Virus record (IMG/VR): IMGVR_UViG_3300048839_001249 | Location: 1 to 64,000 of that record | Direction: 5' to 3' (one strand) | DNA from: a virus | DNA length: 64,000 nt | Shown: piece by piece, positions 13,207 to 38,046 of the stretch | How positions within the stretch are numbered: position 1 is the first letter of the stretch | Layout: every line of letters starts with the position of its first letter | The notes under the pieces: generated by a model | Database searches by the model: none | Told to the model about the DNA's origin: nothing | The model's input: the letters and a program-made list of their open reading frames with translations, nothing else | Position numbers and translations under genes: made by a program

Positions 13207-13511
13207 TCATACTAAAATTAAAAACTTACTACATACCACAAGATTCGTCAAAAGAATTTATTGATGATATGATAGATAATGGTAGTTCAAGAAATGATCT
13301 TCTTGATGAAGGTTATATTTATATTAACATTGACCATATTTGTGCTTTTAATGATGCCAATATGTCAAATGAAACTACTGTCAGATTAACAAATGGTGAT
13401 TGCTGGCCTATACCAATGTCGAAAACAAGACTAATAGAAAAAATGAAACTAGCATTAAAGAAAGAAGGTGAATCATTAAATGTTATAGAATTACAAGAAG
13501 ATGCAAGTTAA
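13203..13511 (+). CDS. hypothetical protein
   Basis: 102 aa, coupled to neighbours. Confidence 0.7.
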   Translation: MIILKLKTYYIPQDSSKEFIDDMIDNGSSRNDLLDEGYIYINIDHICAFNDANMSNETTVRLTNGDCWPIPMSKTRLIEKMKLALKKEGESLNVIELQEDAS

Positions 13512-23550: not shown

Positions 23551-23577
23551 GAGTGGGAGGAAACTCCCACTCTTTTT
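23551..23577 (+). terminator. intrinsic terminator
   Basis: GAGTGGGAG-GAAA-CTCCCACTC-TTTTT. Confidence 0.85.
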
Positions 23578-23591
23578 AAAATTTTACTACT

Positions 23592-24641
23592 ATGAGGATA
23601 AATACGCCAGGATATAAATTTTATAGAACACTAGATGGTTATTATATTGAGTGTATTGGAAGTGGTACAGTAACCTATTATGTGTATCAGATTGAAAACA
23701 ATTATAAAACACTTGTACTTCAAAATGAATACTTACAAGAAGGTGATCCTGAATTGTTAGAATTTCCAGAAGAAGGTTCTTATATTATATCAATAAGATA
23801 TAGTAGTGAATCAACAAGTTTTCAACCCGGAACATATTATAATTATTATGTAAGATATTATCCAACACTTAGAGCAAGATTAATACCAACCATAAGAAAT
23901 TTAATTTGTCAATGTTCACAAACATCACAAGATTTGTGTACAAATGGACAATACAATAAATCACAACAAATAAGAAATGATATTTATCTGGCAATTAATT
24001 CTCTGGTTGCTTATAAAGACATTTTGCAATCACCATGTTTTGTAAAATATACAGAACATGCATTTAGATTGCTGATAGGTGAAGGTATAGACAGATATGT
24101 TCAGAAGCTTGAATATTATATGGACTATGTGGATACATATGGTTATTCACCTGATACTGAACAACTTCTTCGTGAAACAATGTCATATTTCTATATAATG
24201 GCATATTTCACAGAAAAATCAGAAATTGATTTTGATTATGTAGAAGCACCTGCAACAGCAGGAAGTTCTGATTATAATGATGGAGAACAAGATGCACTTG
24301 ATGAATTATTTGCATTTTCAGAACTTGAAAATTGTTATGCCATATTAGGTATAAATGTAAACATGTGGATTGCAAAATTTGAATCAATATTTACAAGTCA
24401 AATATATACATGTGAGAATGGATTATCTTATTTCTATCAAGATGCAACGTCAAAGTTTGAAGAATTTGTTGAACTTGAAGGTAAGCAAACATTTAATGCA
24501 TTAGCTTTTGAGATTGATAGTAATTCTATTATTTTCATCAATGGTGTTGCAATACCAAGTTCTGATTATATTGTATCTGGTACAACAGTAACATTATCTT
24601 ATGGTCTTAGTGTTGGTGACAGAATAACAATCATAAAGTAA
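23592..24641 (+). CDS. putative tail/fibre-attachment protein
   Basis: 349 aa; C-terminal IFINGV...DYIVSGTTVTL...GDRITI phage beta domain. Confidence 0.65.
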   Translation: MRINTPGYKFYRTLDGYYIECIGSGTVTYYVYQIENNYKTLVLQNEYLQEGDPELLEFPEEGSYIISIRYSSESTSFQPGTYYNYYVRYYPTLRARLIPTIRNLICQCSQTSQDLCTNGQYNKSQQIRNDIYLAINSLVAYKDILQSPCFVKYTEHAFRLLIGEGIDRYVQKLEYYMDYVDTYGYSPDTEQLLRETMSYFYIMAYFTEKSEIDFDYVEAPATAGSSDYNDGEQDALDELFAFSELENCYAILGINVNMWIAKFESIFTSQIYTCENGLSYFYQDATSKFEEFVELEGKQTFNALAFEIDSNSIIFINGVAIPSSDYIVSGTTVTLSYGLSVGDRITIIK

Positions 24642-24958
24642 TGAATGATTTAAAACAAACATACCCATTTGGTGCATATAAAACCATACAAAGTGTTGAC
24701 AATGAAGGAGTATCATCTGTTAAAAAAGCACCTGAAAAAATAAATAAGTATGAAACAATTTATGTTACTCCACCATCATTAAATCCTGGGGATCAAGCAG
24801 TTATAATAGTTCCAGAAGAATCTATTGTACTCAGGCCAGAATCATCAATATTTATTAATGGAATATTAATTTCTTCATCCGAATATACAATATTAAATAA
24901 TGTTGTAACTTTGGAAAACATACCACAAGAGAATTCAAACATTGTAATTGTAAGATAA
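24641..24958 (+). CDS. small structural protein sharing the previous gene's C-terminal domain
   Basis: IFINGILISSSEYTILNNVVTL. Confidence 0.65.
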   Translation: MNDLKQTYPFGAYKTIQSVDNEGVSSVKKAPEKINKYETIYVTPPSLNPGDQAVIIVPEESIVLRPESSIFINGILISSSEYTILNNVVTLENIPQENSNIVIVR

Positions 24959-24959
24959 A

Positions 24960-27152
24960 ATGAAAAAATTATTTACAATATTGTTCCTACTGATCTCTGT
25001 ATCAGTATTTTCTCAAATAAGGACAAATATATTTAGAGTTGCTGATGATTCAACAGATATTTCAACATCAACAGTTGTTCCTGCATCATTAGTATTAAGT
25101 GCTGAAACAAACACACTTTATGTATTACCAACAGGATGTTCAGCAGCTACAGCATTATATGAAATATCAAATAAATATGCAATATCAGCATTAATAGGTC
25201 AGCCAGATAGTACAATGATTGTTGCAGGAAATATTGAACTACCAGATACTAATAAATATATTGTTGTAAATACTGATGGAACTGTAAACTTTGTAGCTGG
25301 TACAGGTGGAGTTGATACTTTATGGTATAAAACTGGTGGATTAATTTATACAAGACCTGATATTACAGATGCTAAAGTTAATGGTAATTTCAATGTAACA
25401 GGATTTTCTGTATTTGATACTACAATTTTTGCAAATATTGTGGTTAAAGAAATAGATGATATGAGTACGATAAGAATGATTGTATATAATTCTGCAGATT
25501 CAGGATTATATTATCTTACTCATGCTGAAATGGATACATTGTTTGGATGGACAGTTGACACAGCAAATAATTTTATGTTTATTACAGATACATCTACACT
25601 CACAGGTATAGGTACAAGAACACCAACTGAACAGTTAGAAGTATTAAATGATATAAAAGCAGATACAGCAATCTTTAATTACTATAAAAATACAACTGGA
25701 ATTTCTACAAATTCTGATAGTTTGTTTATTTATACATACGGAAATAATATAGTAACAGATACAGTTATTATTTTAAATGCTGATACAACATTATGGTCAT
25801 TGGTAGGAACTACAATTACAAATAAAAGCAATCATTTTCTTGAAGCTGATACTACAGTAATATTTTCAGGATTACAAGATGATTCAGGATTAACATCTTC
25901 TGATTATTATCTTGTAGGTATTGATAAAAATGGTGCTGAAAATCTTTACTATATTGATGCAAATAAAGTTACTGATTCTGTTACTGGATATTGGACAAGA
26001 GATAATGACATAGGTGCTTTATATGCTACTACATTAAGTGATTATCTTGGAGTTGGTACAAATTCTCCTGCACATGAATTAGATGTAGATGGTAGTGTTG
26101 GGCTTTCAGGAAATTTATATCTTCCAGCTACAACATCAACAACTGGTATTATTAAATTAGGTGGTGCTAATTTTGCTCATTCAATAGGAACTGGTAATTC
26201 ATTTCTTGGTTATAATGCTGGAAATCTAACAATGTCAGGAGATTATAATACTGGAATTGGAGAAAGATCATTATATGGAAATACTACTGGTGATGAAAAT
26301 ACAACAATTGGATATTATTCTTTATATGCAAATACTACTGGTGGTGGTAATACTGTAATAGGTAGTAATGCTATAAAAAATGCAACTCATACAGCCTCTT
26401 ATAATACAGCAATTGGTAGTAGTGTATTATACAATCATGCTACTGGAAATAACAATGTATTTATTGGTTATAAAGCAGGATATGAAAATGACTTTGGTGC
26501 TAATTCAGTAGCAATAGGTTATGAAGCAGCAGCTTACGATACTAACTCAACAACTTCTGTTTATATTGGTTATCAATCAGGAAGTGGTAATAGTACAAAA
26601 CATAAAAAATCAGGTAATGTATTTATAGGCTATCAATCTGGATTAACAGAAACAGGTGATAACAAACTCATTATAGGAAATTCATCAACATCTAAACTAA
26701 TAGATGGTGACTTTTCTGAAAAAAGTATAGTAATTAATAATACATTAGAATTTGATAGTTCACCTAATGCTGATCAACAATTTAATGGTATCATTTCTAC
26801 TCATACAACAGGAGAAGATGTAAAACAATTTGATCTCTGTTATATGAAATCTGATGGAAAACTTTGGCAAGCAGATGCAAGTGCTACATCTACAGCACCT
26901 TGTTTGTGGATGGCAATAGAAGATGCTAATACTACATCTGGACAATTCATAGAAAGAGGATATGTAAGAAATGATGCATGGACATTAACAGTAGGTGGTA
27001 GTTCAGGAATTGTTTATTTAAGTGCTACAACAGGAGAATTTACACAAACAATACCGTCAGGTGGAGATTTAATACAACCAGTAGGTATTGCAATATCAGC
27101 AGATGTAATGTATTTTAATCCTTCAATAGTATATACAATATCAACACCATAA
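24960..27152 (+). CDS. tail-fibre-like protein with a Sec signal peptide
   Basis: MKKLFTILFLLISVSVFS-Q; GIGT..P linkers; N(T/V)xIG repeats; phage-type C-terminal domain. Confidence 0.75.
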   Translation: MKKLFTILFLLISVSVFSQIRTNIFRVADDSTDISTSTVVPASLVLSAETNTLYVLPTGCSAATALYEISNKYAISALIGQPDSTMIVAGNIELPDTNKYIVVNTDGTVNFVAGTGGVDTLWYKTGGLIYTRPDITDAKVNGNFNVTGFSVFDTTIFANIVVKEIDDMSTIRMIVYNSADSGLYYLTHAEMDTLFGWTVDTANNFMFITDTSTLTGIGTRTPTEQLEVLNDIKADTAIFNYYKNTTGISTNSDSLFIYTYGNNIVTDTVIILNADTTLWSLVGTTITNKSNHFLEADTTVIFSGLQDDSGLTSSDYYLVGIDKNGAENLYYIDANKVTDSVTGYWTRDNDIGALYATTLSDYLGVGTNSPAHELDVDGSVGLSGNLYLPATTSTTGIIKLGGANFAHSIGTGNSFLGYNAGNLTMSGDYNTGIGERSLYGNTTGDENTTIGYYSLYANTTGGGNTVIGSNAIKNATHTASYNTAIGSSVLYNHATGNNNVFIGYKAGYENDFGANSVAIGYEAAAYDTNSTTSVYIGYQSGSGNSTKHKKSGNVFIGYQSGLTETGDNKLIIGNSSTSKLIDGDFSEKSIVINNTLEFDSSPNADQQFNGIISTHTTGEDVKQFDLCYMKSDGKLWQADASATSTAPCLWMAIEDANTTSGQFIERGYVRNDAWTLTVGGSSGIVYLSATTGEFTQTIPSGGDLIQPVGIAISADVMYFNPSIVYTISTP

Positions 27153-27161
27153 TTTAAAAAT

Positions 27162-27599
27162 ATGAAAAAGTTATTTTTTATAGTATTATTTACAATCATT
27201 TGTGTAACAGGATTTTCACAAATAGGTGTAAAACACAGACCATTTTATGTATTAAATGATCTTGCATTAGATACAATTACAGGTGGATTTTTATTTTCTG
27301 ATACTACTATTATTTTAGAAATGCCATTAAATGCTGCTGGTTTTAATGTGATTGGAACATCAGCATCTATTGAAGACTCATTATATGTAAGATTTAAAGT
27401 AGCTGATGATGCAGATAGTACTAATTCTTATGTAGCTTATGGAGATACACTATTATTTGAAGGAAGTACATCACTAACAATGGAGAAAGAATTTTTTACT
27501 TATCCATTTCTAATAATAGAAGTTGAATCTGTTAGTGCAGATACCAATAGTGGATATTTCGATTTAATGTTTAGATTAACAAGAAAATACAAAGAATAA
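27162..27599 (+). CDS. exported beta-rich protein
   Basis: MKKLFFIVLFTIICVTGFS-Q signal peptide. Confidence 0.75.
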   Translation: MKKLFFIVLFTIICVTGFSQIGVKHRPFYVLNDLALDTITGGFLFSDTTIILEMPLNAAGFNVIGTSASIEDSLYVRFKVADDADSTNSYVAYGDTLLFEGSTSLTMEKEFFTYPFLIIEVESVSADTNSGYFDLMFRLTRKYKE

Positions 27600-27618
27600 C
27601 AATTAAAATTAAAAAATC

Positions 27619-28098
27619 ATGAAAGCAAAACTCTTACTTATTGTACTATCCTTATTGGTAGTAGGTACTTCATTTGGTCAAAGAAAGAAAAATATTCTTA
27701 CACCTGATGAAGTAAATGCCAAAATTAAAATGGAAACACCTTTTTTGACAGTAACTAAAACAGCAATGTTTGATAATGTTGTCACAAACACATTTACTGC
27801 TGTAGCAGGTGATACTGTAGAAACAAGTATTAATTGGAAACTTGGTAATTTACAAACTGTTACTGTTGTTGATACAGTAAACTTCACATTAATTGATCCT
27901 TCTTATCCTGCAAGATTAACATTAATACTAGTGCATGATACAAGTAGTACTGCATTTCCAGTCTATTTCGATCCTATAATTTTATGGACAGGTGGAACAG
28001 ATTATACTGGAACTGTAAGTAGTGGAATTGATAAAATTGAATTTACATATGATGGAACTAATTATTTAGGAGATTTTACCAAAGATCACAAAGATTAA
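27619..28098 (+). CDS. exported protein with a phage fibre-tip-like domain
   Basis: Signal ...TSFG-Q; INWKLGNLQTVT...WTGGT...IDKIEFTYDGTNYLG domain common at phage fibre C-termini. Confidence 0.75.
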   Translation: MKAKLLLIVLSLLVVGTSFGQRKKNILTPDEVNAKIKMETPFLTVTKTAMFDNVVTNTFTAVAGDTVETSINWKLGNLQTVTVVDTVNFTLIDPSYPARLTLILVHDTSSTAFPVYFDPIILWTGGTDYTGTVSSGIDKIEFTYDGTNYLGDFTKDHKD

Positions 28099-28104
28099 TA
28101 GTTT

Positions 28105-31100
28105 ATGAAAAGATTTATTATATCACTGCTTTTTTTGATAGTTTCATTTTCTGCTTTTTCTCAAGTACCCACTAAAATGTGGGTACTTGATCGTTTAAAA
28201 AATCTTGGTTATGAATTAAATCAAGATTGGAATGAAGATATTCATGATAGCATTTTAACAATAGTAACTGATAGTACTATTACTATGTGGTATAATCATA
28301 ATGATAGTATTCGCAATAAATCTTTTTTACCTGTTTATATTGATAATGACTTAAAAATTGATGGAAATTTATTAATTGATAGTATCTTTCACACTTCTCA
28401 ATCTGTTGGAGAAGAAATAAATGTTTATGCTCCACTTAAAGTTATTACAGAGATAACATTAGATACTATATATCCTGGAACAAGTACTACTTTATATATG
28501 TTAGATGGTGGACAGGCATCTATACGATATACTACTTTTGATAGTACTCTTAATTTAAACTCACCTGATAGATTTATCTTATCTGGAGGTAATGGTTATG
28601 TGATTATTGATCCTAATGGTATCTATAGATTTAATGTACCCGGAATATCTAAATCATCAATGGGATTAGCCTCCTCTCCTTGGTATGGACTTTACTCTAC
28701 TAACATTAAAGATGATACTACTAATGTATTTTTGACTGTTCCTCTTGCTGAATCTGATACTGTACTTGTTACAAGAAACGATACTATCTTTAAGATGTAC
28801 TTATCCATTGACAGTGTACTCTATGCAGACACAGCCGGATATGCACTAAATAGTTATTGGTATGAAGTTCCTGATGATACTATTAAAACTTACAATCATG
28901 TAGTTGTGGATTCAAGTTTTATGGTTAATTACAAGAATACTATATTTGGACATTATAATACTGGTTTATTTGGTAACGATTCTAATTTAGTGTTTGGTAT
29001 ATTAGAAGATAGTGTATGGATGATAGACCATGTTTGGAGTGAAAGTGAAATGTTAGTGAGAACTATTATGGGAGTTAATTTACTTGATGGGACTACAAGT
29101 GGATTGAGTGCGTCTATGAATAAGACTGTTGGAGGAAGGCATTCTGTTGAACTATTTGCTGGAAATCATACTTCGGTAGCTATTAATAGTAAAGAAAATG
29201 CTACGATAACTGCTGATACATTTAATCTTTATATAGAAAGTGCTATGAATACAGTGCTATCTATAACCGATAGTAATTATAAGTTTACTGGTATTCCCGA
29301 ATCTACTGTTAAATATGTTGCAGGGTTTGATGAAAATGGGACTCTATATAAGGCAGATAGTTCTTTATTCAGTAACTCTACAATAATTCCTTATACGGGA
29401 GATACTCTATGGAAATCAACATATAGTACGGAAGGTTATGATATTATATCTCTTGTAGATTCAGGTAATGTTGTTGCTATTGGTACTGATTATCCTAATG
29501 GTACATTAGATGTTAGAGGTTTTTTAAATGTTTCTTCTGATTTAATTAATCCAGCAGGTTTTGGTGTATATGATACTAACGGTGTGGGATTATCTTATAT
29601 TCCAACCTTACAGTTTATAATAGATAGAAGTAATAGTGATGAAGCAGGCTATACTGCAATGTCTTTAGATTTATCTGAAGAAGGTAATAATCCATTCTAT
29701 TTGTTTAATGGCTCTTTAGAAAATCATTATAACTCATTTTATGCCACTAAGGATAGTCTTGGATATAAAGCTAATGATACTACTAAGGTATTTCATATTA
29801 ATGCTACAGGGGAAGTATATGCTCCATTGATTAGTAATTTAGCTAAATCTAATATTCTATATTACGATACATTAACAGGAGAAATTACGTATGATACTGC
29901 ACAATCAGTAAATGAAACAGACCCTTACTTTACTGCTGATGTTCGAGATAGTGTACTTTCTATAAGCCAAGAACAATGGTTATTAACTTATACTGATACT
30001 TCCAGATATTCTTTTAATTATGCTAAAGATAGTAGTTATGTAAGCATGAATATAGATACCATATACTTATTTACTTTACCGGAACAACATATAGATTACA
30101 TTTATGAAAATCCCGATAATGGTAGTGGATTAGCAACTCCGTGGACTACAAATGAGGTTTGGGTTGTTGCTGATGAAAGAGTACTTGGTAATATAGCAGA
30201 CACAATTATTATTGAATGGAGTGAACCAGCAACAGATACTTGTATTATTACTAATGTGATATATGCTGTCCTTCCCTCTACTGACTCAGTAACAAAATTT
30301 ATTCATACTCCTAATAACTCAATGTCGGTTTGGGATATTGTTAGCATTACTATAAAATCTCCAATATTACCTCCTCTCTATATATATCCTAATCTTCATG
30401 TATTAGGCAATCAAGTAATAGGAGATACAGCTAATTTTCAAACATATCTTAATTTACCTTCTCAGGATTCAGTAATCTATTCAGATACTACATTTTATTA
30501 TAATGAACAAGACCCTATATTCTTATCTAATGTTCGAGATTCTATTATAAGTGTTTCTCAGGAACAGTGGAATTTAATGTATGTAGACACGTCACGATAT
30601 TCATTAACGAGTCTTCATTCAGATAGTGCTAACTATGCACCTATGCCCGATAGTGTTATTCATGCTATATATTCGGATACTGCATTATACTATGATGAAA
30701 TAGACCCTCATTTTATTGATGATGCTAGAGATACTGTTATTGCTATCAGTCAAGAGCAATGGTCACTTAGGTATGCAGATACAGCAAGGTACGCTCTAAA
30801 TGTTGTTCCTTTTCCTGAACCTAATTGGGATACTCTTGCTTACTATGCTAACCTTGATACATTAGATTATTACCAATTAATAACTGATGATCATGATACA
30901 TCATCTACTAACGAACTTCAATTACTTACTTATGATAAGTCAACTGGTATAATGAATATTAGTGATGGAACTGGCGATACAATAAATTTATTTGGTTCTG
31001 CTAATAGAGGATTAGTTCCTCAATCTGGAGGTGGAACATCTAACTATATGAGGGCAGATGGTACATGGGCAACTCCTCCGGGAACAGCAGTAGCAGATAA

Positions 31101-34100
31101 CTTAGGTAATCATATAATGACCCAAAACCTATCAACAACTGATGATTATTTTATAGGGAATAATGGAGAAAATTGGACAGGATTTAAGTTTACAAGATAT
31201 AAGAGTAAGGATAGTTATAAGTTAGCAGGTAATCAATATCAGTTTAGTAATATAATACTATCTAAATTATATGACGATAATACAGCAAGTTACATTGCTC
31301 CAATATGGATTCAGGGTGTTGCTGCAAACGATAACTTTGGAGTAACTGAGTATATTCCAAAAGGATTTACAATTCAGCCTGAAACACAATATCCGATATT
31401 TTCTGATCTTGCTGATACTATTGATGCTGGATACATTATGCTATGGAATCACTATGATAGCGTAGTCAATAAGATTAACAGACATGATTTTATCAATAGC
31501 ATTACCTCTTTTCAGCTATATGATGATACCACTACCTACGATGCTACAAAATATTGGGTAGAACAGCAGGGTTATCTTACATCATTCACAGAACAAGATT
31601 CTGTTATAGGTAATGAAGGAGATACTACAAAACATCATACTGTAGGATGGGGATTGGTAGGAGAGTTCTATAATCAAACAGATAATGTAGAGTGGGAAGC
31701 TGATAGTAGTAAAGTTGCTTCTTTATATGCTCTTAATGATACAGCAACAAATATTAGAGCAGATTTTCCAAATGTAAGTGGGTTTATATCGTGGTCTGAT
31801 ACTAATGTTATTGCAACACAATACTGGGTTAACGATCAAGGTTATTTAACTACTGAGGTTGATGGTAGCATAACCAATGAATTACAGAATTTAACATTTG
31901 CTCAGGCTACTGGAATAATGAATATTAGTTCAGGTACAGGAGATACTATTCATGAGTATGATGGTGAAACAAGAGGGTTAGTTCCTGATGCCTTACCTGT
32001 ATTTACAGGAAATGAGTTTCTCAATATTGACGGCACATGGGATGCTGTTGATATTCCTGTTGAACAAGATAGTGTGATAGGTAATGAGGGTGATACCAGT
32101 AAGTATATTATAGATGGCTTTGGGATTAAAGATTTTGCTTACAACCAGACTCAGGATGCTACTGTCGAAGTAGACACTACTTTAATTACTACATGGAATG
32201 ATGTGGATAGTTTAATAGCACTTGTTGACACAGGGTACTTTAAGAGAACAAACAACTTTACTACACTTAAAAATATAAATGACTCTGTTGGTATAGGAAC
32301 AGATAATCCAAGAACTAAGTTTGATATAATAGGAGAATTATCTCTTACTGGACAATCTAATTCTATTATCTATGATGTAGATAGTAATGAGTTGATTAGG
32401 ATTAATCATGAAGGAGTTAATCCACCAAATTTAGGAAGTTATGTTGATATAGGATTGCATGGTGGAGAATCTTATGGATTAGGATCGTTAAATACATTCT
32501 CGTATAACGATAGTCAATTTTCACTTGCTAATTTTGGTTCAGTAAAAACAAACGGAAGACAATCAAATTATGGAAGTGATCTTCATAATAATATTATGTG
32601 TTTTGATACAGTACCTTCATTATCATACATTATTTTTAAATCTTGGCCAGACGCAGGAGGAAATATTGGTACATTAGTAGTAACAGCAGCAAATGATATT
32701 GGTCTGATAAAAGTTAACTTCTCTGTGCAATACAGTGTCAATTATATTACTGTTATTGATAGTTCAACAACAGTAAGGACAGGAATGTTTTGGGATAGTT
32801 TATTCATTGCCTCACCGAGATTATCTTCTACTTATGATTCCATAATGATACCAGTTTATTCAAGAGTAATTGCATCTGCCGAAAATAACAATAAGGTATC
32901 TGTTAAGGTTGAGTATTTCCATACTGAGAATAATGCTTTTGGAGTAGATATTACTACGACTACCTCTGCCGACATATTAACCTCTTGGGTAGATAAGGTT
33001 AATAAATATGGAATAGACACTGCAACAACAGCTTTTGGAATATACTATGATCCTATTACTGGGGTTACAAGTTATGATTCCGTATCAAGCGGGGGAGGGG
33101 CTGATGGCGATAGTCTTTGGAATCATGTAGTATTACAGGATATAGATATGACAGGATTTAATCTTATCAATCCCGATACATTATTTCACACACCTTATTC
33201 AACAACATTTGTTCCTGCTGATGATGAATTACTTATTTGGGATGATACTGAAAATGCTATTGCAGGAGTTTCTTTAACTGATTTAACATCTAATCTTCCA
33301 TTGGATAACTACCAGTTAAAATCTGATACCTCTACTTATGATGCTACAAAGCATTATGTGGATAGTGTTAATATGTTTCATCAAGAAGATGGAGCAGTGG
33401 AGATGAAAGATAATGACGTATTGAGAATTGATGCTGGTGATGTTTTGTCTTTTGTGAACAATACAGGAGATAGCACTAAAATATATCAGGCAGGAGAGAG
33501 TTTTGTTATCCAACCTCAAAGTACTGTTGAGTACACTCAAATATATAGTGATGTTTATATAGATGGAGATACTCTCATACTTAATGAAATGACTAAGGCT
33601 AAGAAGGCTCACAATGTATTTTATGATGAGGTTTCAGGAGTGCTTACTTATGGAGATACTACTATTACAGCAGCAGAAGTAGATGGCTCGGTTACTAATG
33701 AAGGCTCATTAACAGTTGTTGATCCTGGGGCAAACAAAAGTGCAATAAGAAGTAATACAAGTGGAAGTACTGATGTTACGATAGAGGGTGGAGATAATAT
33801 TACGGTAACTGAGAATACGGGCACTGGAACTATCACAGTAGCAACAAAACAGACGACTGCCATTAATACAACAATGGTTGCAACTGCCACCTTTAGTTTT
33901 AATGATGCGACAACTTACTATTTTGGGGCTTCACAGGTTGGATTTAGCACAACAGAGACAATATCAAGAAGTATTATTATTCCCCATGATGGCACAATAA
34001 CATTAGGACAATTTGTTACAACAACTGTTGCCGCAGGATCATCTCAGGATTGGAGTGTATATTTAAGACTGAATAATACAACGGATTACTTAATAGAAAC

Positions 34101-34266
34101 AATACAATCAGGAGGTAATGTGGAAATTTGGAGAAATGATGGGTTAAGCATAGCTGTTTCTGAAGGAGATGCTCTTTGTTGGAAAATGGTTACTCCTACT
34201 TGGACTACAAATCCACAGATAAGAGGAAATACTGGATGTCATGGAACCATGATAATAACATATTAA
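28105..34266 (+). CDS. 2,053-aa fibre/adhesin-like protein with a signal peptide and internal repeats
   Basis: MKRFIISLLFLIVSFSAFS-Q; RGLVP...DGTW and VGIGT..P fibre motifs; Asp/Ser/Thr-rich. Confidence 0.8.
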   Translation: MKRFIISLLFLIVSFSAFSQVPTKMWVLDRLKNLGYELNQDWNEDIHDSILTIVTDSTITMWYNHNDSIRNKSFLPVYIDNDLKIDGNLLIDSIFHTSQSVGEEINVYAPLKVITEITLDTIYPGTSTTLYMLDGGQASIRYTTFDSTLNLNSPDRFILSGGNGYVIIDPNGIYRFNVPGISKSSMGLASSPWYGLYSTNIKDDTTNVFLTVPLAESDTVLVTRNDTIFKMYLSIDSVLYADTAGYALNSYWYEVPDDTIKTYNHVVVDSSFMVNYKNTIFGHYNTGLFGNDSNLVFGILEDSVWMIDHVWSESEMLVRTIMGVNLLDGTTSGLSASMNKTVGGRHSVELFAGNHTSVAINSKENATITADTFNLYIESAMNTVLSITDSNYKFTGIPESTVKYVAGFDENGTLYKADSSLFSNSTIIPYTGDTLWKSTYSTEGYDIISLVDSGNVVAIGTDYPNGTLDVRGFLNVSSDLINPAGFGVYDTNGVGLSYIPTLQFIIDRSNSDEAGYTAMSLDLSEEGNNPFYLFNGSLENHYNSFYATKDSLGYKANDTTKVFHINATGEVYAPLISNLAKSNILYYDTLTGEITYDTAQSVNETDPYFTADVRDSVLSISQEQWLLTYTDTSRYSFNYAKDSSYVSMNIDTIYLFTLPEQHIDYIYENPDNGSGLATPWTTNEVWVVADERVLGNIADTIIIEWSEPATDTCIITNVIYAVLPSTDSVTKFIHTPNNSMSVWDIVSITIKSPILPPLYIYPNLHVLGNQVIGDTANFQTYLNLPSQDSVIYSDTTFYYNEQDPIFLSNVRDSIISVSQEQWNLMYVDTSRYSLTSLHSDSANYAPMPDSVIHAIYSDTALYYDEIDPHFIDDARDTVIAISQEQWSLRYADTARYALNVVPFPEPNWDTLAYYANLDTLDYYQLITDDHDTSSTNELQLLTYDKSTGIMNISDGTGDTINLFGSANRGLVPQSGGGTSNYMRADGTWATPPGTAVADNLGNHIMTQNLSTTDDYFIGNNGENWTGFKFTRYKSKDSYKLAGNQYQFSNIILSKLYDDNTASYIAPIWIQGVAANDNFGVTEYIPKGFTIQPETQYPIFSDLADTIDAGYIMLWNHYDSVVNKINRHDFINSITSFQLYDDTTTYDATKYWVEQQGYLTSFTEQDSVIGNEGDTTKHHTVGWGLVGEFYNQTDNVEWEADSSKVASLYALNDTATNIRADFPNVSGFISWSDTNVIATQYWVNDQGYLTTEVDGSITNELQNLTFAQATGIMNISSGTGDTIHEYDGETRGLVPDALPVFTGNEFLNIDGTWDAVDIPVEQDSVIGNEGDTSKYIIDGFGIKDFAYNQTQDATVEVDTTLITTWNDVDSLIALVDTGYFKRTNNFTTLKNINDSVGIGTDNPRTKFDIIGELSLTGQSNSIIYDVDSNELIRINHEGVNPPNLGSYVDIGLHGGESYGLGSLNTFSYNDSQFSLANFGSVKTNGRQSNYGSDLHNNIMCFDTVPSLSYIIFKSWPDAGGNIGTLVVTAANDIGLIKVNFSVQYSVNYITVIDSSTTVRTGMFWDSLFIASPRLSSTYDSIMIPVYSRVIASAENNNKVSVKVEYFHTENNAFGVDITTTTSADILTSWVDKVNKYGIDTATTAFGIYYDPITGVTSYDSVSSGGGADGDSLWNHVVLQDIDMTGFNLINPDTLFHTPYSTTFVPADDELLIWDDTENAIAGVSLTDLTSNLPLDNYQLKSDTSTYDATKHYVDSVNMFHQEDGAVEMKDNDVLRIDAGDVLSFVNNTGDSTKIYQAGESFVIQPQSTVEYTQIYSDVYIDGDTLILNEMTKAKKAHNVFYDEVSGVLTYGDTTITAAEVDGSVTNEGSLTVVDPGANKSAIRSNTSGSTDVTIEGGDNITVTENTGTGTITVATKQTTAINTTMVATATFSFNDATTYYFGASQVGFSTTETISRSIIIPHDGTITLGQFVTTTVAAGSSQDWSVYLRLNNTTDYLIETIQSGGNVEIWRNDGLSIAVSEGDALCWKMVTPTWTTNPQIRGNTGCHGTMIITY

Positions 34267-34267
34267 T

Positions 34268-34456
34268 ATGACAATAGATTTATCCATAGGAGAGGTTGAA
34301 TACCTACTCACATTGATCAATATGAATAATGAGTTTGGTGGTCATTACAATGATCCTAAGTATGATATACCTTTGAGGGACAAGTTAAGAGAGTTAAAGA
34401 AAAAGATTAATGAAAAGGTTACTACTGATACTATTAATGATGCCTGTAATTGTTAA
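34268..34456 (+). CDS. small hypothetical protein
   Basis: 62 aa directly after the fibre gene. Confidence 0.55.
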   Translation: MTIDLSIGEVEYLLTLINMNNEFGGHYNDPKYDIPLRDKLRELKKKINEKVTTDTINDACNC

Positions 34457-34853
34457 TGCTCAGGTGCTTACTAAAAAGGATATTATCCCATTGGTCTGTA
34501 CATTTCAGGCAGGGATATATGAAGGCTTTGCTGAAGGATTGAAGTTTCACTATGAAAGCATTGACAGTAAACTTGGATTAAACGATAATTACTGGAATCC
34601 TGCTATGAGTTGCAACAATAAATATAAGAATGGTGATCCTGCACAGGGAGAGGCATTTCCTATGAGTACCACAGTCTTTGTATGGACTACTGATGGTTAT
34701 CATCTTACAAGAGCTGCAAGAAATACCTGTCTTATGGCTGGACTCACATTCAAATTGGGAGAGAAACAAAAGTGGTATGAATACCTTTTGGAATTTATTG
34801 CTTACTATATTACTTTTACATTAGGATTTAACATAACTTATGAACTGCTATGA
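34410..34853 (+). CDS. exported/membrane protein
   Basis: Signal ...IVNA-Q; WNP..S..NKYKNGDP..GE motif; hydrophobic C-terminus. Confidence 0.75.
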   Translation: MKRLLLILLMMPVIVNAQVLTKKDIIPLVCTFQAGIYEGFAEGLKFHYESIDSKLGLNDNYWNPAMSCNNKYKNGDPAQGEAFPMSTTVFVWTTDGYHLTRAARNTCLMAGLTFKLGEKQKWYEYLLEFIAYYITFTLGFNITYELL

Positions 34854-35398
34854 AACTAATTATCTTTGGTAAAGGCGGTTTTGGTAGAGAAGTAGAAGCC
34901 GCTATTAAAAACTCCAGACTATCCAGATTTTACGATATTGTAATGATGGAAGAAGGAGAAGATTTACTACCTATTTATAATGAATGTATTATAGCTATTG
35001 GCGATCCTAATGTAAGAAGTAGATTAGCTAATGAATTACGATATAGCTTTGGAAAGATTATATTAGGTACTTGTTATTCCTCTAATATAGGGGGCGGTAC
35101 AATTATTCAACCCGGAGCTATAATTACTGTTAATTGTAATATTGGTAAGCATGTTCAAGTAAATTTAAATGCTACTGTTGGACATGATTGTAACATAGGA
35201 GATTGTACAACTATTGCTCCAGGGGCCCATATATCAGGAAATGTAACTATTGGAAAAAGATGTTATATAGGAACAGGAGCAGTAATTAAACAGAATATTA
35301 ATATTTGTGATGATGTAACAATAGGTGCTGGTGGAGTAGTAGTAAAAGATATTACTGAATCAGGTATTTATGTTGGTTGTCCAGTTAATAAAAAATAG
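34850..35398 (+). CDS. NeuD/PglD-family sugar acetyltransferase
   Basis: N-terminal IFGKGGFGREV and IAIGDP..R, hexapeptide (LbH) repeats with VGHDC, C-terminal YVGCP. Confidence 0.9.
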   Translation: MKLIIFGKGGFGREVEAAIKNSRLSRFYDIVMMEEGEDLLPIYNECIIAIGDPNVRSRLANELRYSFGKIILGTCYSSNIGGGTIIQPGAIITVNCNIGKHVQVNLNATVGHDCNIGDCTTIAPGAHISGNVTIGKRCYIGTGAVIKQNINICDDVTIGAGGVVVKDITESGIYVGCPVNKK

Positions 35399-35399
35399 T

Positions 35400-35732
35400 A
35401 TGAAGTACATTGTATTTTGGTTATTGGTTATTAATGTTAGCTTGTCTAACAAGCCTAAAATTGATGAGTTTGGTGCAAAAAGTCAATGGACTACTCTTGA
35501 ATATAATATGGGTACTGAATATGAACAGTATTTTAAAATGTTTGATGATAGACAGGCTGCACTTGACTTTCTTAGTAGAGGACAAAATCACTCAAAGGTA
35601 TATGCTATTGCAATAGATAGTGTTAAGATTCCTACAACGGAAGAATATTTTAAGAATTATATTTTGGTATATGACTCGGTTAATTATTATACCTTACCAA
35701 TTTTACATGACACAATAATATTACGCCCATGA
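35400..35732 (+). CDS. exported small protein
   Basis: Likely start MKYIVFWLLVINVSLS; three D-[ST]-[VI] sequons. Confidence 0.6.
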   Translation: MKYIVFWLLVINVSLSNKPKIDEFGAKSQWTTLEYNMGTEYEQYFKMFDDRQAALDFLSRGQNHSKVYAIAIDSVKIPTTEEYFKNYILVYDSVNYYTLPILHDTIILRP

Positions 35733-36292
35733 CAAAACAATTTGTATTTAAGACAGGAGATATTGTATTAGTATCTGGACACTCTAAGAGGGCAGAGATT
35801 ATACAAAAGTTTCAAGAAAAGTCTGATAAAGACTCAGGTAAATGGAATCATTCCATGCTTGTTACAGTAATTAATGGAATACCTTATGTATATGAAGCTG
35901 CTGAGATTGAAGAAAGAAAAGTCAAAGCTGCTGCTAAGTTTACTCACATTAGTGAATATAATGGATATGAACTATTAGTTCTTAGACCTAAGTTTGCTAT
36001 CATTGAAAACGATGTTATTCAATGGTGTGTATTCTATAATGGTACTCCTTATGATTATTCTAGTTTACTTAGAGATCAAATAGTAAGAACACTTACTGGT
36101 TGGTGGTTAGGTAAGAAAGGAGATAAAGCTGCTAGACGTATGGTATGTCACGAGCTTACTCAATTTATTATGAACCTATATAAACCAGACTTATTTCCTG
36201 AATGGTTTAAAGGTGATGTAGCTAAGATATTTCATTCTGTTGATTATAATAAGGTACAATATATACCTAATTACAAATACATTAAACAATAA
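35729..36292 (+). CDS. permuted NlpC/P60 (YiiX/YebB-like) amidase/acyl-enzyme
   Basis: GDIVL...WNHS...GTPYDY...MVCHEL, with His before Cys. Confidence 0.8.
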   Translation: MTKQFVFKTGDIVLVSGHSKRAEIIQKFQEKSDKDSGKWNHSMLVTVINGIPYVYEAAEIEERKVKAAAKFTHISEYNGYELLVLRPKFAIIENDVIQWCVFYNGTPYDYSSLLRDQIVRTLTGWWLGKKGDKAARRMVCHELTQFIMNLYKPDLFPEWFKGDVAKIFHSVDYNKVQYIPNYKYIKQ

Positions 36293-36308
36293 TTTAAATT
36301 AGATTACT

Positions 36309-37202
36309 ATGAAGACAAAAATTTTAGTATTACTATTTAGTGTTGTAATGATCACAGCACTTGCACAAGAAACCTGTATTCGGTATTCAGTGAAAACATC
36401 ACCCTCTTCTGGTTATTCTGGTGGATTTAGGGATGAGTTATGCTATGATGAATATGGTATGTTTCCTACTACTGCACATAACCCATATCAATTAGGTATT
36501 GAGGTTAATGGTGAACTATTACTTAAGTGGAAAGCTTTAGTTGAATTAAGGAAGCCTATATGGGGTGAATTAGGTAATCAGAAGTTTAAAGATTTACTTC
36601 CTGAATATATTGAATCAGTAGATGAATATATCTATATTGAGCAGTTTCCTTGGTTCTCTTTTGATACATTACCCTCATTACCCAAAGGTCATGAATTAGT
36701 ACCTTACGGATATGAGCTTAGAGTATCTTCTGGGGGTAGTGAATATATGTATGTTCAAGGAGCTACTTTAGAGATGGCTGAAATGTTACTTGATCAAGGA
36801 TACTTTGCAGAATGGAGGCCATGGAATAAAGTAGGTCTTCGTATTATGAAAGTAGTCAATCCTGAATATGCTATTGTAGAAGCACAACGTACTCAGATGT
36901 ATATTGATTATGAAAATATAATTAGTACATATCTTGTACAAAGTGCAATTTATAAGTTTCCTAAGTTCTACTATCCTAAGGAATATTATACTTTAAGATG
37001 GTGGATTAAAACATCAGAAGATGCTAATTACGTAGAAGTTACACCTGATAAGGAACATCCTTTATATTCAGATACACGATCTGGTTATATAGATGAAAGA
37101 AAGATAGCTAGAGAGCAAGACAAGAAATCTTGGAATGCTTGGATTAATAGTACTATTTCTTATAGTGGAGATCAGAGAGTTAAAAAATTACTTGGTTACT
37201 AA
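36309..37202 (+). CDS. exported hypothetical protein
   Basis: MKTKILVLLFSVVMITALA-Q signal peptide. Confidence 0.75.
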   Translation: MKTKILVLLFSVVMITALAQETCIRYSVKTSPSSGYSGGFRDELCYDEYGMFPTTAHNPYQLGIEVNGELLLKWKALVELRKPIWGELGNQKFKDLLPEYIESVDEYIYIEQFPWFSFDTLPSLPKGHELVPYGYELRVSSGGSEYMYVQGATLEMAEMLLDQGYFAEWRPWNKVGLRIMKVVNPEYAIVEAQRTQMYIDYENIISTYLVQSAIYKFPKFYYPKEYYTLRWWIKTSEDANYVEVTPDKEHPLYSDTRSGYIDERKIAREQDKKSWNAWINSTISYSGDQRVKKLLGY

Positions 37203-37255
37203 ATATTTTAATCTTAAATAATTCTTAAAATTATTTAATAACAATTAATACTACA

Positions 37256-37519
37256 ATGGCTAAAATACTCAATGAAAATTCCTTTTCGTGGCTTGATAAA
37301 ATTGTAAGTATAATATTATCTGTAATCAGTGGTATAGCTGTAGTTATACTTTTTGTTGCAGATGTAAAAAATACTACTAAAACTAATGCTAATGACATTC
37401 AAAATGTCAAGGATAACTTTAGTGATTTTAAATCAGACATTAAGGATGATGTTAAGGAAATAAAAGAAGATATTGAATATGTTAGGAAACTTATCGAAAA
37501 CAAACACAGCAATGATTAG
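37256..37519 (+). CDS. membrane protein with coiled coil (lysis-associated?)
   Basis: One TM helix plus a coiled coil. Confidence 0.65.
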   Translation: MAKILNENSFSWLDKIVSIILSVISGIAVVILFVADVKNTTKTNANDIQNVKDNFSDFKSDIKDDVKEIKEDIEYVRKLIENKHSND

Positions 37520-37739
37520 AATTGTATGTATTTTAATTTTGTTGTCATTACTTTCATTACCAGTAATATATCTTACTACTCCTATGGAAAAGGAAAACAC
37601 TGAACTAACACAATTTGTAACACGGGGTAGTAGCATAATGAAGATACAATATGAAAGTCAAGATTCATTAACACATTGTTTGGAAGATTTAAAAAAACAA
37701 GTTGATAGTCTTGTAATGACTGTGGAAAAATATTATTAA
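37512..37739 (+). CDS. membrane-anchored coiled-coil protein (spanin-like?)
   Basis: N-terminal TM helix from MIRIVC; two DSL sequons. Confidence 0.55.
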   Translation: MIRIVCILILLSLLSLPVIYLTTPMEKENTELTQFVTRGSSIMKIQYESQDSLTHCLEDLKKQVDSLVMTVEKYY

Positions 37740-37755
37740 CTTAAAAATTATAATT

Positions 37756-38046
37756 ATGAACTACTTAGTATTTTTAATGGCCTTTGCTGGAATTGTACTT
37801 CACTTATTAGTGAAGTATCAAGATTCCAGAAGTAAAAAAGAAATGTTTGCATGGAAAGATCATCTTGTTTATGCAGCTATGTCAGCTATTGCTATGGTTG
37901 CTATTATAGTAGGATGGGAACAAGCTAAAGTGTATTTGGGTATGGGAGATGAATTGTTTCCTTTTACTGCTTTTCTGCTTGGATATTTTTCTGACTCTAT
38001 GATAAAGAATATCAGTAAATTTAATCCTATCAGGATTAAAAAGTAA
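37756..38046 (+). CDS. putative holin
   Basis: 96 aa, three TM helices, basic C-terminus. Confidence 0.6.
   Translation: MNYLVFLMAFAGIVLHLLVKYQDSRSKKEMFAWKDHLVYAAMSAIAMVAIIVGWEQAKVYLGMGDELFPFTAFLLGYFSDSMIKNISKFNPIRIKK

What the first reader, a model, noticed from the sequence alone, without database searches (positions are those of the whole stretch)
24960..37739. Candidate system: phage fibre proteins exported by Sec and O-glycosylated by the host in the periplasm
Seen: four consecutive genes in the tail-fibre position (24960, 27162, 27619, 28105) start with cleavable-type signal peptides followed by Gln, as do 34410 and 36309. The first four are packed with D-[ST]-[AILMTV]. Hand counts: about 56 in the 2,053-aa protein, 12 in the first ~345 aa of the 730-aa protein, 5 in 145 aa, 2 in 159 aa, and 3 in the 35400 protein. 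Controls are about 2 in the capsid (488 aa), 2 in TerL (707 aa) and 6 in the muzzle (1,668 aa). Established: this tripeptide is the sequon of the Bacteroidetes general O-glycosylation system, which acts on exported proteins, and Gln at +1 is typical of Bacteroidetes signal peptidase I substrates. Virion fibres normally fold in the cytoplasm without signal peptides. Inference: the phage sends fibre/decoration proteins to the periplasm, has them glycosylated, and adds them to particles at or after lysis as a glycan coat. Alternatively it displays them on the infected cell.
Basis: partly seen in the sequence, partly recalled or inferred. Interest (0 to 1): 0.93.

Follow-up and report, generated by a model that had tools for sequence, protein, structure and literature searches.

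The report
Exported, sequon-saturated crAss-like phage fibre genes
A crAss-like phage of a Bacteroidota host puts that phylum's secretion signal on every fibre-like gene it has and loads them with about ten times the usual density of its sugar-attachment motif, so this host-recognition gear is probably exported and glycosylated in the periplasm, a route I found described for no tailed phage.

Summary
Six genes (24960, 27162, 27619, 28105, 34410, 36309) begin with classic Sec/SPI signal peptides, each with Gln at +1 (the Bacteroidetes Q-rule). The first four are strongly enriched in D-[ST]-[AILMTV]:
- 2,053-aa protein: 56 sites against 14.5±3.5 in shuffles (z 11.9). Control motifs are not enriched.
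- 730-aa protein: 12 sites against 3.0, all in residues 19-345.
- 145-aa protein: 5 against 0.8.
- Pooled density is 24.9 per 1000 aa, against 2.3 in the rest of the phage and 3.2 in 105 exported proteins from Bacteroidota genomes.

The genes lie between a tail-hub-like gene and the lysis genes, where PhicrAss001 and Fpv3 encode fibres without signal peptides or sequon enrichment. I found no other fibre-like gene in the 92.7-kb genome.

Export is very likely and glycosylation likely. Whether these proteins join the virion at lysis or act as non-virion envelope or released proteins remains open. Two facts pull in opposite directions:
- Cellulophaga phage phi18:3 gp085-087 also carry such leaders, and their record annotates them as structural from MS/MS.
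- The 730-aa protein's relatives are mostly ordinary exported proteins of Bacteroidota cells.

This scan has already noted the same pattern in at least 35 other genomes. My searches of the held paper library found no paper describing it.

The parts
23551..23572 (+). Strong terminator-like hairpin (9-bp stem with 6 GC pairs, followed by a T run). It marks the upstream edge of the variable hub-fibre-lysis module.
   Evidence: tblastn conservation with 80 related loci stops at the preceding gene, 22374-23525.
23592..24641 (+). 349-aa tail protein in the tail-hub position. Its stop overlaps the start of the next gene.
   Evidence: Weak match to phrog_15330, the family of Fpv3 gp18. 33 homologues were found. 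The AF2 model has pLDDT 75. Its C-terminal domain (residues 284-349) matches small beta domains of phage tail and neck complexes and of CBA120 TSP4, Z 8.1-8.7, rmsd 1.7-2.4 A over 60-64 residues. No match to PhicrAss001 gp38 was obtained.
24641..24958 (+). 105-aa protein without a leader, in the position and of the size of PhicrAss001 tail hub B (gp39, 114 aa).
   Evidence: Position only. No sequence match was found.
24960..27152 (+). 730-aa exported fibre-like protein. Signal peptide is residues 1-18 (24960-25013). The sequon-rich N-terminal part is residues 19-345 (25014-25994, 12 sequons). The NTxG repeat fibre domain is about residues 385-650 (26112-26909).
   Evidence: PHROG virion and tail-spike families match residues 400-600. 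Tail-fibre genes of other phages match residues 385-650. The protein has 959 or more homologues.
27162..27599 (+). 145-aa exported protein with 5 sequons (34.5 per 1000). No family match.
27619..28098 (+). 159-aa exported protein with 2 sequons, which is not significant. No family match.
28105..34266 (+). 2,053-aa exported giant protein with 56 strict sequons (66 under the extended motif), spread along its whole length.
   Evidence: It shares modules with the leader-bearing proteins P0001, P0002 and P0126.
34410..34853 (+). 147-aa protein with a signal peptide and Gln at +1, a hydrophobic C-terminus and no sequon. Its stop overlaps the start of the next gene by 4 nt.
34850..35398 (+). 182-aa NeuD/PglB/VioB (PglD-type) nucleotide-sugar acetyltransferase. 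It is cytoplasmic, with no leader.
   Evidence: Pfam Hexapep plus PglD_N. TIGR03570 scores 151 bits, E 2.5e-44, just under its cut-off of 160.8. A homologue sits inside a glycan-synthesis cluster of Flavobacterium phage immuto.
35370..35732 (+). 120-aa ORF. From Met11 (35400) it reads MKYIVFWLLVINVSLS|N, a weaker leader without Gln, and it holds 3 sequons.
   Evidence: (3 against 0.4, p 0.005).
35729..36292 (+). 187-aa protein with no leader. It weakly resembles YiiX-type permuted papain-like enzymes and is a candidate endolysin.
   Evidence: NF007458, E 0.011, far below its cut-off. This and its position are the only basis.
36309..37202 (+). 297-aa protein with a signal peptide and Gln at +1 and 1 sequon. 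Function unknown.
37256..38046 (+). Three small membrane proteins (87, 88 and 96 aa). They are candidate holin and spanin genes and close the module.
   Evidence: Hydrophobic segments. The position matches PhicrAss001 gp27-gp28, annotated as lysis regulator and holin. No family support beyond a weak PHROG match.

Best explanation
The window is a nearly complete crAss-like phage. Its closest cultured relatives are the Flavobacterium psychrophilum phages FpV4 and Fpv3, and its host is a Bacteroidota bacterium.

Its hub-fibre-lysis module has replaced the usual cytoplasmic fibres with four proteins made as Sec precursors. Signal peptidase I would cut each before Gln, and the host glutaminyl cyclase would convert that Gln to pyroglutamate. 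In the periplasm the host's general O-glycosylation system would then add its glycan to many of the roughly 75 D-[ST]-h sites (56 on the giant). This would give heavily glycosylated fibre or decoration proteins.

These proteins carry no detected outer-membrane export signal, so they would stay in the periplasm until the holin and endolysin act. They would then meet the cytoplasmically built particles and dock on the tail hub, by the same kind of late fibre addition that works in vitro for T4.

The phage-encoded PglD/NeuD-type acetyltransferase may alter the sugar that ends up in that glycan.

My graded confidence:
- Export: about 0.9.
- Glycosylation, given export: about 0.75.
- Virion membership and attachment at lysis: about 0.5.
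For: - All six leaders have the n-h-c form, small residues at -3 and -1, and Gln at +1. That is the rule for most Bacteroidetes SPI substrates (PMC5837995, PMC10653852).
- The sequon excess is specific to the motif. The third residue is L/I/V/T/A/S/M in 85% of the giant's D-[ST]-x, and E-, N-, reversed and non-hydrophobic variants are not enriched.
- The density exceeds every one of 84 exported Bacteroidota proteins of 300 aa or more that I sampled (maximum 18.7 per 1000, against 27.3 here).
- The review PMC12871550 states that motif sites in non-cytoplasmic proteins are nearly fully substituted. It also states that engineered motifs become glycosylated and that glycosylation works across species.
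- 11 of 20 giant sequons in aligned columns are conserved in P0001 at about 40% identity.
- Position: the genes follow a tail protein and a hub-B-sized gene with a 1-nt gap and precede the lysis genes. PhicrAss001 has the same fibres-then-lysis order, gp22-26 followed by gp27-30.
- Residues 385-650 of the 730-aa protein match tail-fibre and structural proteins of many phages.
- No other fibre-like gene was found in the 92.7-kb genome. The 1,647-aa ORF belongs to a PHROG family of unknown function (phrog_14721), which I take to be cargo-type from its position after the giant polymerase ORF.
- Precedent: Cellulophaga phage phi18:3 gp085, gp086 and gp087 begin with the same kind of leader plus Gln. 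Their record annotates them as virion or structural proteins 'based on experimental MS/MS proteomics'.
- No T9SS C-terminal domain was detected, so the periplasm is the default destination.
Against: - Nothing here shows the proteins are in particles.
- 80 related loci, Fpv3, PhicrAss001 and two phages with the same hub family all have leaderless, sequon-poor genes at this position. The arrangement is therefore a recent replacement and not a lineage habit.
- The closest relatives of the 730-aa protein are cellular exported proteins that lie among housekeeping genes. The block could be captured host surface genes with a non-virion role.
- In that family the leader and sequon density do not co-vary.
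- Leader-bearing P0002-4 and phi18:3 gp085-087 are not sequon-rich.
- No N-terminal hub-docking segment could be recognised.
- The host is unknown, so the presence of its O-glycosylation system is inferred from the phylum.
Confidence: 0.45

Rival explanations
1. The proteins are exported and glycosylated but are not virion parts. On this reading the block is captured or convergent cell-surface fibre genes, like MAT-type adhesins. The phage expresses them late to remodel or mask the infected cell's envelope. Possible uses are blocking superinfection, keeping progeny from sticking to debris (as T5 Llp does by another means), or providing soluble glycoproteins released at lysis.
For: - 82 of 119 listed homologues of the 730-aa protein have leaders, 64 of them with Gln at +1. 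In 8 bacterial loci that I inspected they sit in chromosomes beside housekeeping genes such as groES/groEL and near response-regulator-like genes, often as tandem paralogues, with no terminase- or portal-sized genes beside them.
- Signal-peptide-bearing, phage-tail-fibre-like adhesins on a cell surface are established for Bdellovibrio (PMC10769870).
- P. gingivalis prophages encode Q-rule leader proteins that their authors read as host-surface modifiers (PMC10367356).
- Relatives of this phage manage with leaderless fibres.
Against: - The phage would then have no recognisable fibre or receptor-binding gene besides the muzzle.
- A 2,053-aa accessory protein placed straight after the hub genes in a lytic-type crAss-like late module is costly.
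- No outer-membrane targeting signal (T9SS CTD, lipobox) was detected that would put the proteins on the surface.
- The leader-bearing proteins of phi18:3 are annotated from MS/MS as virion components.
Confidence: 0.3
2. The proteins are exported, but the D-[ST]-h excess is a structural feature of these beta-rich fibres (strand starts, metal sites) and not a set of used glycosylation sites.
For: - Half of the aligned sequons are positionally conserved between the giant and P0001, as a structural motif would be.
- The related N-[ST]-h motif is 2.9-fold enriched across the 730-aa family purely because of the NTxG repeat.
Against: - The enrichment needs exactly the residues the glycosylation system accepts at position 3 and only Asp at position 1. 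D-[ST]-non-h, E-[ST]-h and the reversed motif are at or below expectation.
- The sites lie in many unrelated contexts.
- Leaderless relatives and the fibres of PhicrAss001 and Fpv3 lack the excess.
- In Bacteroidota, motif sites in exported proteins are reported to be almost always occupied (PMC12871550).
Confidence: 0.1
3. The N-terminal hydrophobic segments are not used as signal peptides. They are hub-docking or membrane-associated helices of cytoplasmically assembled fibres.
For: PhicrAss001 gp22 docks in the hub through its first 26 residues (PMC10172136).
Against: - gp22's N-terminus is not signal-peptide-like.
- All six leaders, including those on two non-fibre proteins, obey the -3/-1 rule and the phylum-specific Gln at +1 rule.
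- The same leader type heads hundreds of cellular homologues.
Confidence: 0.05
4. The giant acts as a glycan sink. Its dozens of acceptor sites would drain lipid-linked O-glycan or undecaprenyl phosphate late in infection, weakening envelope or capsule synthesis to help lysis or block other phages.
For: Only the extreme site density, which is higher than in any sampled host protein, and the adjacent sugar acetyltransferase.
Against: This is pure inference with no known precedent. It does not explain the fibre-type domains or the position next to the hub genes.
Confidence: 0.03

Closest known systems
Tail fibres of cultured crAss-like phages: PhicrAss001 gp22-gp26 (PMC10172136) and the Flavobacterium phage Fpv3/FpV4 gp19 region
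   Same: The genes lie in the virion module, next to hub-type genes and just before the lysis genes. The rest of the module (MCP, ring-type proteins, muzzle, giant polymerase protein) is homologous.
   Different: Those fibres have no signal peptide and ordinary sequon densities of 1-7 per 1000. gp22 docks in the hub by its own N-terminus. None of the four proteins here is detectably homologous to them.
Cellulophaga phage phi18:3 (Pachyviridae) gp085, gp086, gp087
   Same: This is a cultured Bacteroidota phage with three consecutive large proteins whose leaders end ...YS|Q...SA|Q and ...NA|Q. The record annotates them as virion, structural or tail proteins from MS/MS.
   Different: It is a podovirus of another family. 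Its proteins have one sequon each, below expectation, and no sequence similarity to the proteins here. The leaders are not remarked on in the record's annotation.
Substrates of the general O-glycosylation system of Bacteroidota (review PMC12871550)
   Same: Non-cytoplasmic proteins bearing D-(S/T)-(L/I/V/T/A/S/M). The third-residue spectrum in the giant (V, I, T, S, L, A) mirrors the measured one.
   Different: They are encoded by a virus, and the site density is 8-10 times that of sampled exported host proteins. Glycosylation was not measured.
Cell-surface phage-tail-like trimeric fibres: Bdellovibrio MAT proteins (PMC10769870) and the Bacteroidota 'tail fiber domain' / PTL_trimer-S74 family found here
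   Same: A signal peptide followed by beta-helical fibre repeats. The 730-aa protein is a sequence relative of the Bacteroidota family (E down to 4e-111).
   Different: Those proteins are chromosomal genes of cells and usually end in an S74 chaperone domain. The phage protein has no S74 match, adds a unique sequon-rich N-terminal half, and sits in a virion operon.
Q-rule leader proteins of Porphyromonas gingivalis prophages (PMC10367356)
   Same: Published case of Bacteroidota phages encoding proteins with SPI leaders that expose Gln.
   Different: Those are small proteins of unknown function in temperate phages, read by the authors as host-surface modifiers. They are not fibre-position genes, and no link to glycosylation was made.
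Glycosylated mycobacteriophage virions (phage-encoded glycosyltransferases acting on capsid and tail-tube proteins; from my own knowledge, alluded to in PMC11256854)
   Same: Virion proteins of a tailed phage that carry glycans.
   Different: There the phage's own enzymes act in the cytoplasm. Here the host's periplasmic system would act on exported proteins.

Membership tests
Sec/SPI substrates obeying the Bacteroidetes Q-rule | Tripartite leader: basic n-region, hydrophobic core, c-region with small residues at -3 and -1 | tested here: met
   All six N-termini fit. The test used a rule-based detector, not SignalP.
Sec/SPI substrates obeying the Bacteroidetes Q-rule | Gln at +1 of the cleavage site | tested here: met
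   6 of 6. The rule is described in PMC5837995.
Sec/SPI substrates obeying the Bacteroidetes Q-rule | Cleavage and cyclisation to pyroglutamate in vivo | not testable with these tools
   Needs N-terminal mass spectrometry.
Substrates of Bacteroidota general O-glycosylation | Non-cytoplasmic location | tested here: met
   Predicted from the leaders. This is a prediction only.
Substrates of Bacteroidota general O-glycosylation | D-(S/T)-(A/I/L/V/M/T) motif present, and above chance | tested here: met
   Giant z 11.9, 730-aa N-terminal half p<1/3000, 145-aa z 5.0. The 159-aa protein is not significant.
Substrates of Bacteroidota general O-glycosylation | Glycan actually attached, in a host that has the system | not testable with these tools
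   The host is unknown. Bacteroidota is inferred from the Q-rule leaders and from relatives that infect Flavobacterium.
Tailed-phage tail fibres (crAss-like type) | Encoded in the virion module beside hub genes | tested here: met
Tailed-phage tail fibres (crAss-like type) | Fibre-type domain homologous to known fibres | tested here: met
   730-aa residues 385-650. The giant only shares modules with other uncharacterised leader-bearing fibre-like proteins.
Tailed-phage tail fibres (crAss-like type) | N-terminal segment that docks in the tail hub | tested here: inconclusive
   No similarity to gp22 residues 1-26 or to the fibre N-termini of relatives.
Tailed-phage tail fibres (crAss-like type) | Present in purified particles | not testable with these tools
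   The phage is uncultured. The only precedent is phi18:3.
Cell-surface PTL_trimer/S74 or MAT-type fibres | C-terminal S74 intramolecular chaperone, present in most members | tested here: not met
   No PF13884 match in any of the four proteins. It is present in P0010, P0052 and P0053.
Cell-surface PTL_trimer/S74 or MAT-type fibres | Encoded by a cellular genome outside phage modules | tested here: not met
   The record is a 98%-complete virus genome.
Type IX secretion cargo | C-terminal sorting domain (TIGR04183 or TIGR04131, PF18962) | tested here: inconclusive
   No match at E up to 1 in NCBIfam or 0.01 in Pfam. Divergent CTDs could be missed.
NeuD/PglB/VioB sugar acetyltransferases (34850-35398) | PglD_N domain plus left-handed beta-helix hexapeptide repeats | tested here: met
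   PF17836 and PF00132 above their cut-offs. TIGR03570 at 151 bits is just under its cut-off of 160.8.

The most novel reading that the evidence does not exclude
A tailed phage builds part of its virion outside the cytoplasm. Its fibres are secreted by Sec, trimmed and capped by the host's Q-rule machinery, and coated with dozens of host O-glycans in the periplasm. They are then added to finished particles only when lysis merges the two compartments. The progeny would carry a host-made glycan coat, which the phage's own sugar acetyltransferase might modify.
Probability: 0.35. Interest if true: 0.9.

Novelty: new variant of a known kind. Interest (0 to 1): 0.78.

Why it matters
Tailed-phage particles are taught as cytoplasmic assemblies. 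Fibres that mature in the periplasm would add a compartment and a step (attachment at lysis) to that scheme. It would also make the host's secretion, glutaminyl-cyclase and O-glycosylation systems host factors for infectivity.

A host-derived glycan coat on fibres could affect adsorption, protease resistance, sticking to mucus or particles, and recognition by animal immune systems. That is relevant to crAss-like phages in guts and to phage use against fish-pathogenic Flavobacterium.

Practically, these genes would be mis-annotated as bacterial surface proteins, and recombinant fibres made in E. coli cytoplasm would lack their native form. The scan has noted the same pattern in many other Bacteroidota phages, so it may be a general, overlooked habit and not a curiosity of one genome.

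Tried and rejected
- AF2 model of the 730-aa protein was poor: mean pLDDT 50, with only about residues 410-600 confident. Foldseek against PDB gave nothing meaningful. Surface exposure of the sequons could therefore not be tested.
- Complex prediction with two hub proteins, the 105-aa protein and three copies of the mature fibre N-terminus returned no verdict.
- Sequence searches of PDB with the hub, the 730-aa protein and the giant found nothing.
- Hub model against PDB: Foldseek found nothing below E 0.001. The VIA wide search matched only the C-terminal small domain. PhicrAss001 gp38 did not appear, so the 'tail hub A' label stays positional.
- tblastn of the giant and of P0001 against 50,697 phage records gave no match.
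- The search for related loci: the hub protein alone found nothing. Alignments A1 and A2 were too divergent to search with. P0008 found nothing in viral contigs.
- ESM Atlas: the giant's N-terminus gave only weak leads to viral clusters (score 0.89). The 297-aa protein gave no usable hit.
- Sequencing runs: two runs with small word shares and no RNA holder listed.
- No T9SS CTD and no S74 domain were detected.
- I looked for paired cysteines as a sign of periplasmic folding. The four proteins have only 0-4 Cys each, so this says nothing.
- Literature searches for exported or signal-peptide-bearing tail fibres found no paper that describes them.
- One mistyped call (43) returned an error.

Full report
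**What the window is.** The window is the first 64 kb of a 92,688-bp IMG/VR virus record rated 98% complete, with about 31% G+C. Its layout is crAss-like:
- TerL at 13501, portal at 15627, major capsid protein at 19306.
- Ring- and auxiliary-type proteins, a 1,668-aa muzzle-type protein at 41092 and a 5,366-aa giant ORF from 49833, in the position of the crAss-type virion RNA polymerase protein.

The capsid protein is 61% identical to that of the Flavobacterium psychrophilum phages FpV4 and Fpv3, and more distantly related to PhicrAss001. The host is therefore very probably a member of the Bacteroidota, plausibly Flavobacteriales. This is an inference.

Six ORFs (24960, 27162, 27619, 28105, 34410, 36309) start with a basic n-region, a hydrophobic core of 10-14 residues, small residues at -3 and -1, and Gln at +1. 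I could not run SignalP. A rule-based detector of my own marks these six and the weaker 35400 start. Elsewhere in the genome it marks one lipoprotein and one small membrane protein, and no capsid, portal, terminase, muzzle or replication protein. Gln at +1 in six of six is the signature of Bacteroidetes signal peptidase I substrates (PMC5837995, PMC10653852).

| Protein | Observed | Shuffle expectation | Result |
|---|---|---|---|
| 2,053-aa giant | 56 | 14.5±3.5 | z 11.9 |
| 730-aa, whole | 12 | 4.8 | z 3.5 |
| 730-aa, residues 19-345 | 12 | 3.0 | 0 of 3000 shuffles reach it |
| 730-aa, residues 346-730 | 0 | 1.9 | none |
| 145-aa | 5 | 0.8 | z 5.0 |
| 159-aa | 2 | 1.3 | not significant |

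The excess is specific to the motif. In the giant, E-[ST]-h, N-[ST]-h, the reversed motif and D-[ST]-non-hydrophobic are all at or below expectation. After D-[ST], a permitted residue follows in 72% of cases, against a 40% background. A first-order Markov expectation is 36. With Ser allowed at position 3, as measured glycoproteomes show (PMC12871550), the giant has 66 sites against 17.8 (z 13.5). The sites lie in mostly unique contexts along the whole protein.

Pooled, the four mature proteins carry 24.9 sites per 1000 residues, against 2.3 in the rest of the phage. For a host-side baseline I scored 105 leader-plus-Gln proteins from 44 Bacteroidota genome loci. They have 3.2 sites per 1000 and an observed/expected ratio of 1.1. 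The maximum among the 84 proteins of 300 aa or more is 18.7 per 1000. The phage proteins are therefore far outside ordinary exported host proteins.

**Surroundings.** A strong terminator-like hairpin at 23551-23572 coincides with the point where similarity to 80 related IMG/VR loci stops. The module that follows contains, in order:
- A 349-aa protein and a 105-aa protein.
- The four leader-bearing genes, packed with gaps of 1-19 nt.
- A small cassette: a 147-aa leader protein, a PglD/NeuD-family sugar acetyltransferase whose start overlaps that protein's stop, and a 120-aa sequon-bearing protein.
- A weak YiiX-like peptidase candidate, a 297-aa leader protein and three small membrane proteins.
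- The conserved exonuclease, ring and muzzle genes.

PhicrAss001 has the same logic of fibres gp22-26 followed by lysis genes gp27-30, at another place in its module. I modelled the 349-aa protein from 18 homologues (pLDDT 75). Its C-terminal 65 residues match a small beta domain of CBA120 tailspike TSP4 and of several phage portal-tail and neck complexes (Z 8.1-8.7). It is therefore a tail part. Identity with crAss001 hub protein gp38 was not shown.

No other fibre-like gene turned up in the genome. The 1,647-aa ORF after the giant polymerase ORF belongs to a PHROG family of unknown function, which I take to be cargo-type from its position.

**What the proteins are related to.**
- *The 730-aa protein.* Residues 385-650 match tail-fibre and virion structural proteins of cyanophages, pelagiphages, roseophages and others.
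  - In the 5.8-billion-protein set it has more than 950 relatives. Of the 119 listed, 82 carry leaders and 64 have Gln at +1.
  - I fetched 44 genome loci and inspected the gene neighbourhoods of eight. There the relatives sit in Bacteroidota chromosomes among housekeeping genes, often as tandem leader-bearing paralogues, with no terminase- or portal-sized genes beside them. Many relatives end in an S74 chaperone domain.
  - They resemble the signal-peptide-bearing MAT fibres on Bdellovibrio cells (PMC10769870).
  - Family-wide, the N-[ST]-h motif is 2.9-fold enriched because of the NTxG repeat. The D-[ST]-h sequon is not enriched, with or without a leader (0.99 against 0.90).
  - The sequon load of the phage protein lies wholly in its unique N-terminal half.
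- *The giant.* It has almost no relatives.
  - The nearest, P0001 (1,549 aa, about 40% identity over several segments) and P0126, both have leaders with Gln and are sequon-rich (29 against 9.5 and 13 against 5.7).
  - More distant leader-bearing proteins (P0002-4) and leaderless ones (P0128-131) are not enriched.
  - In aligned columns, 11 of 20 giant sequons are conserved in P0001.
  - Enrichment thus occurs only in exported versions, but a leader alone does not predict it.

**Comparison within the lineage.** All of the following have leaderless, sequon-poor genes at the fibre position:
- Fpv3.
- PhicrAss001 gp22-26.
- The 16 related loci that extend far enough downstream.
- Two phages that share this hub family.

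The leader-bearing block is a recent replacement in this phage.

**How it most likely works.**
1. *Shown by sequence:* the leaders and the sequon excess.
2. *Established elsewhere:* Bacteroidota glycosylate D-(S/T)-hydrophobic sites of non-cytoplasmic proteins nearly to completion, including engineered and foreign proteins. Q-rule substrates are cyclised to pyroglutamate.
3. *Inferred:* the four proteins are exported, capped and heavily O-glycosylated. Lacking any detected outer-membrane sorting signal, they wait in the periplasm until lysis.
4. *More tentatively inferred:* they then attach to the hub of finished particles.

Two points favour virion membership. There is no alternative fibre gene. 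In addition, I confirmed that the three leader-plus-Gln proteins gp085-087 of cultured Cellulophaga phage phi18:3 are annotated as structural from virion MS/MS. That lead came from earlier notes of this scan. Late addition of fibres to fibreless particles is classical for T4 in vitro (my own knowledge).

The main rival is that these are non-virion envelope or released proteins, captured from or convergent with the cellular fibre family. P. gingivalis prophage Q-rule proteins have been read that way (PMC10367356).

The acetyltransferase has a homologue inside a large glycan-synthesis cluster of Flavobacterium phage immuto. Its link to the fibres' glycan is speculation.

**Novelty.** Searches of the paper library found no description of Sec-exported tail fibres or of host O-glycosylation of phage proteins. 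The nearest published remark is the P. gingivalis prophage note. Earlier notes of this scan report the same pattern in at least 35 other genomes. This window is one strong instance of a recurrent, apparently unpublished theme. It stands out for four consecutive genes, the highest site count I saw (56-66 on one protein) and the neighbouring sugar acetyltransferase.

**Limits.** There was no SignalP, no usable structure for the sequon-rich regions and no verdict from the complex prediction. The host is unknown.

Noticed in passing
window 23551-23572 and 22374-23525: A strong terminator-like hairpin sits exactly where tblastn conservation with 80 related phage loci ends. Everything from the hub gene to the lysis genes (23592-38046) behaves as one exchangeable cassette.
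   Followed up: partly
window 34850-35398; L132:6001-6573: The phage encodes a NeuD/PglD-type sugar acetyltransferase. Its homologue in Flavobacterium phage immuto lies in a 10-gene glycan-synthesis cluster with glycosyltransferases, aminotransferases, an epimerase and a methyltransferase.
   Followed up: partly
L086, L090, L091, L096, L098, L102 (Bacteroidota genome loci): Cellular leader-bearing 'tail-fibre-like' proteins come in tandem clusters of 2-4 paralogues with further leader-bearing partners of about 460 aa. In L090 and L102 they lie near genes whose products begin like response regulators (identified from N-termini only).
   Followed up: no
L131:12204-14302 (same genes in L130): Three consecutive fibre-position genes of a related phage share a conserved N-terminus (roughly HI[AS]V[RK]DE.A[VI]FG..R[ED]AGT). 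This looks like alternative fibres sharing one hub-docking segment.
   Followed up: no
G000:C1:88592-88927 (minus strand, beyond the window): A 111-aa ORF with a lipoprotein-type leader (…LLLVTLAS|C) lies next to an 84-aa membrane protein in the early or replication region.
   Followed up: no
window 38089-38793: An exonuclease-family gene (phrog_298) is embedded in the virion module between the lysis genes and the ring protein. Fpv3 gp24 has the same placement.
   Followed up: no
P0001 residues 1057-1108: The giant's closest relative carries a dockerin type I domain (PF00404, E 3e-5). This is an extracellular calcium-binding module, consistent with life outside the cytoplasm.
   Followed up: no
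window 24960-27152, residues about 400-600: N-[ST]-h is also enriched in the 730-aa protein (13 against 5.5). This comes from the NTxG fibre repeat shared by the whole family and should not be mistaken for a glycosylation signal.
   Followed up: yes
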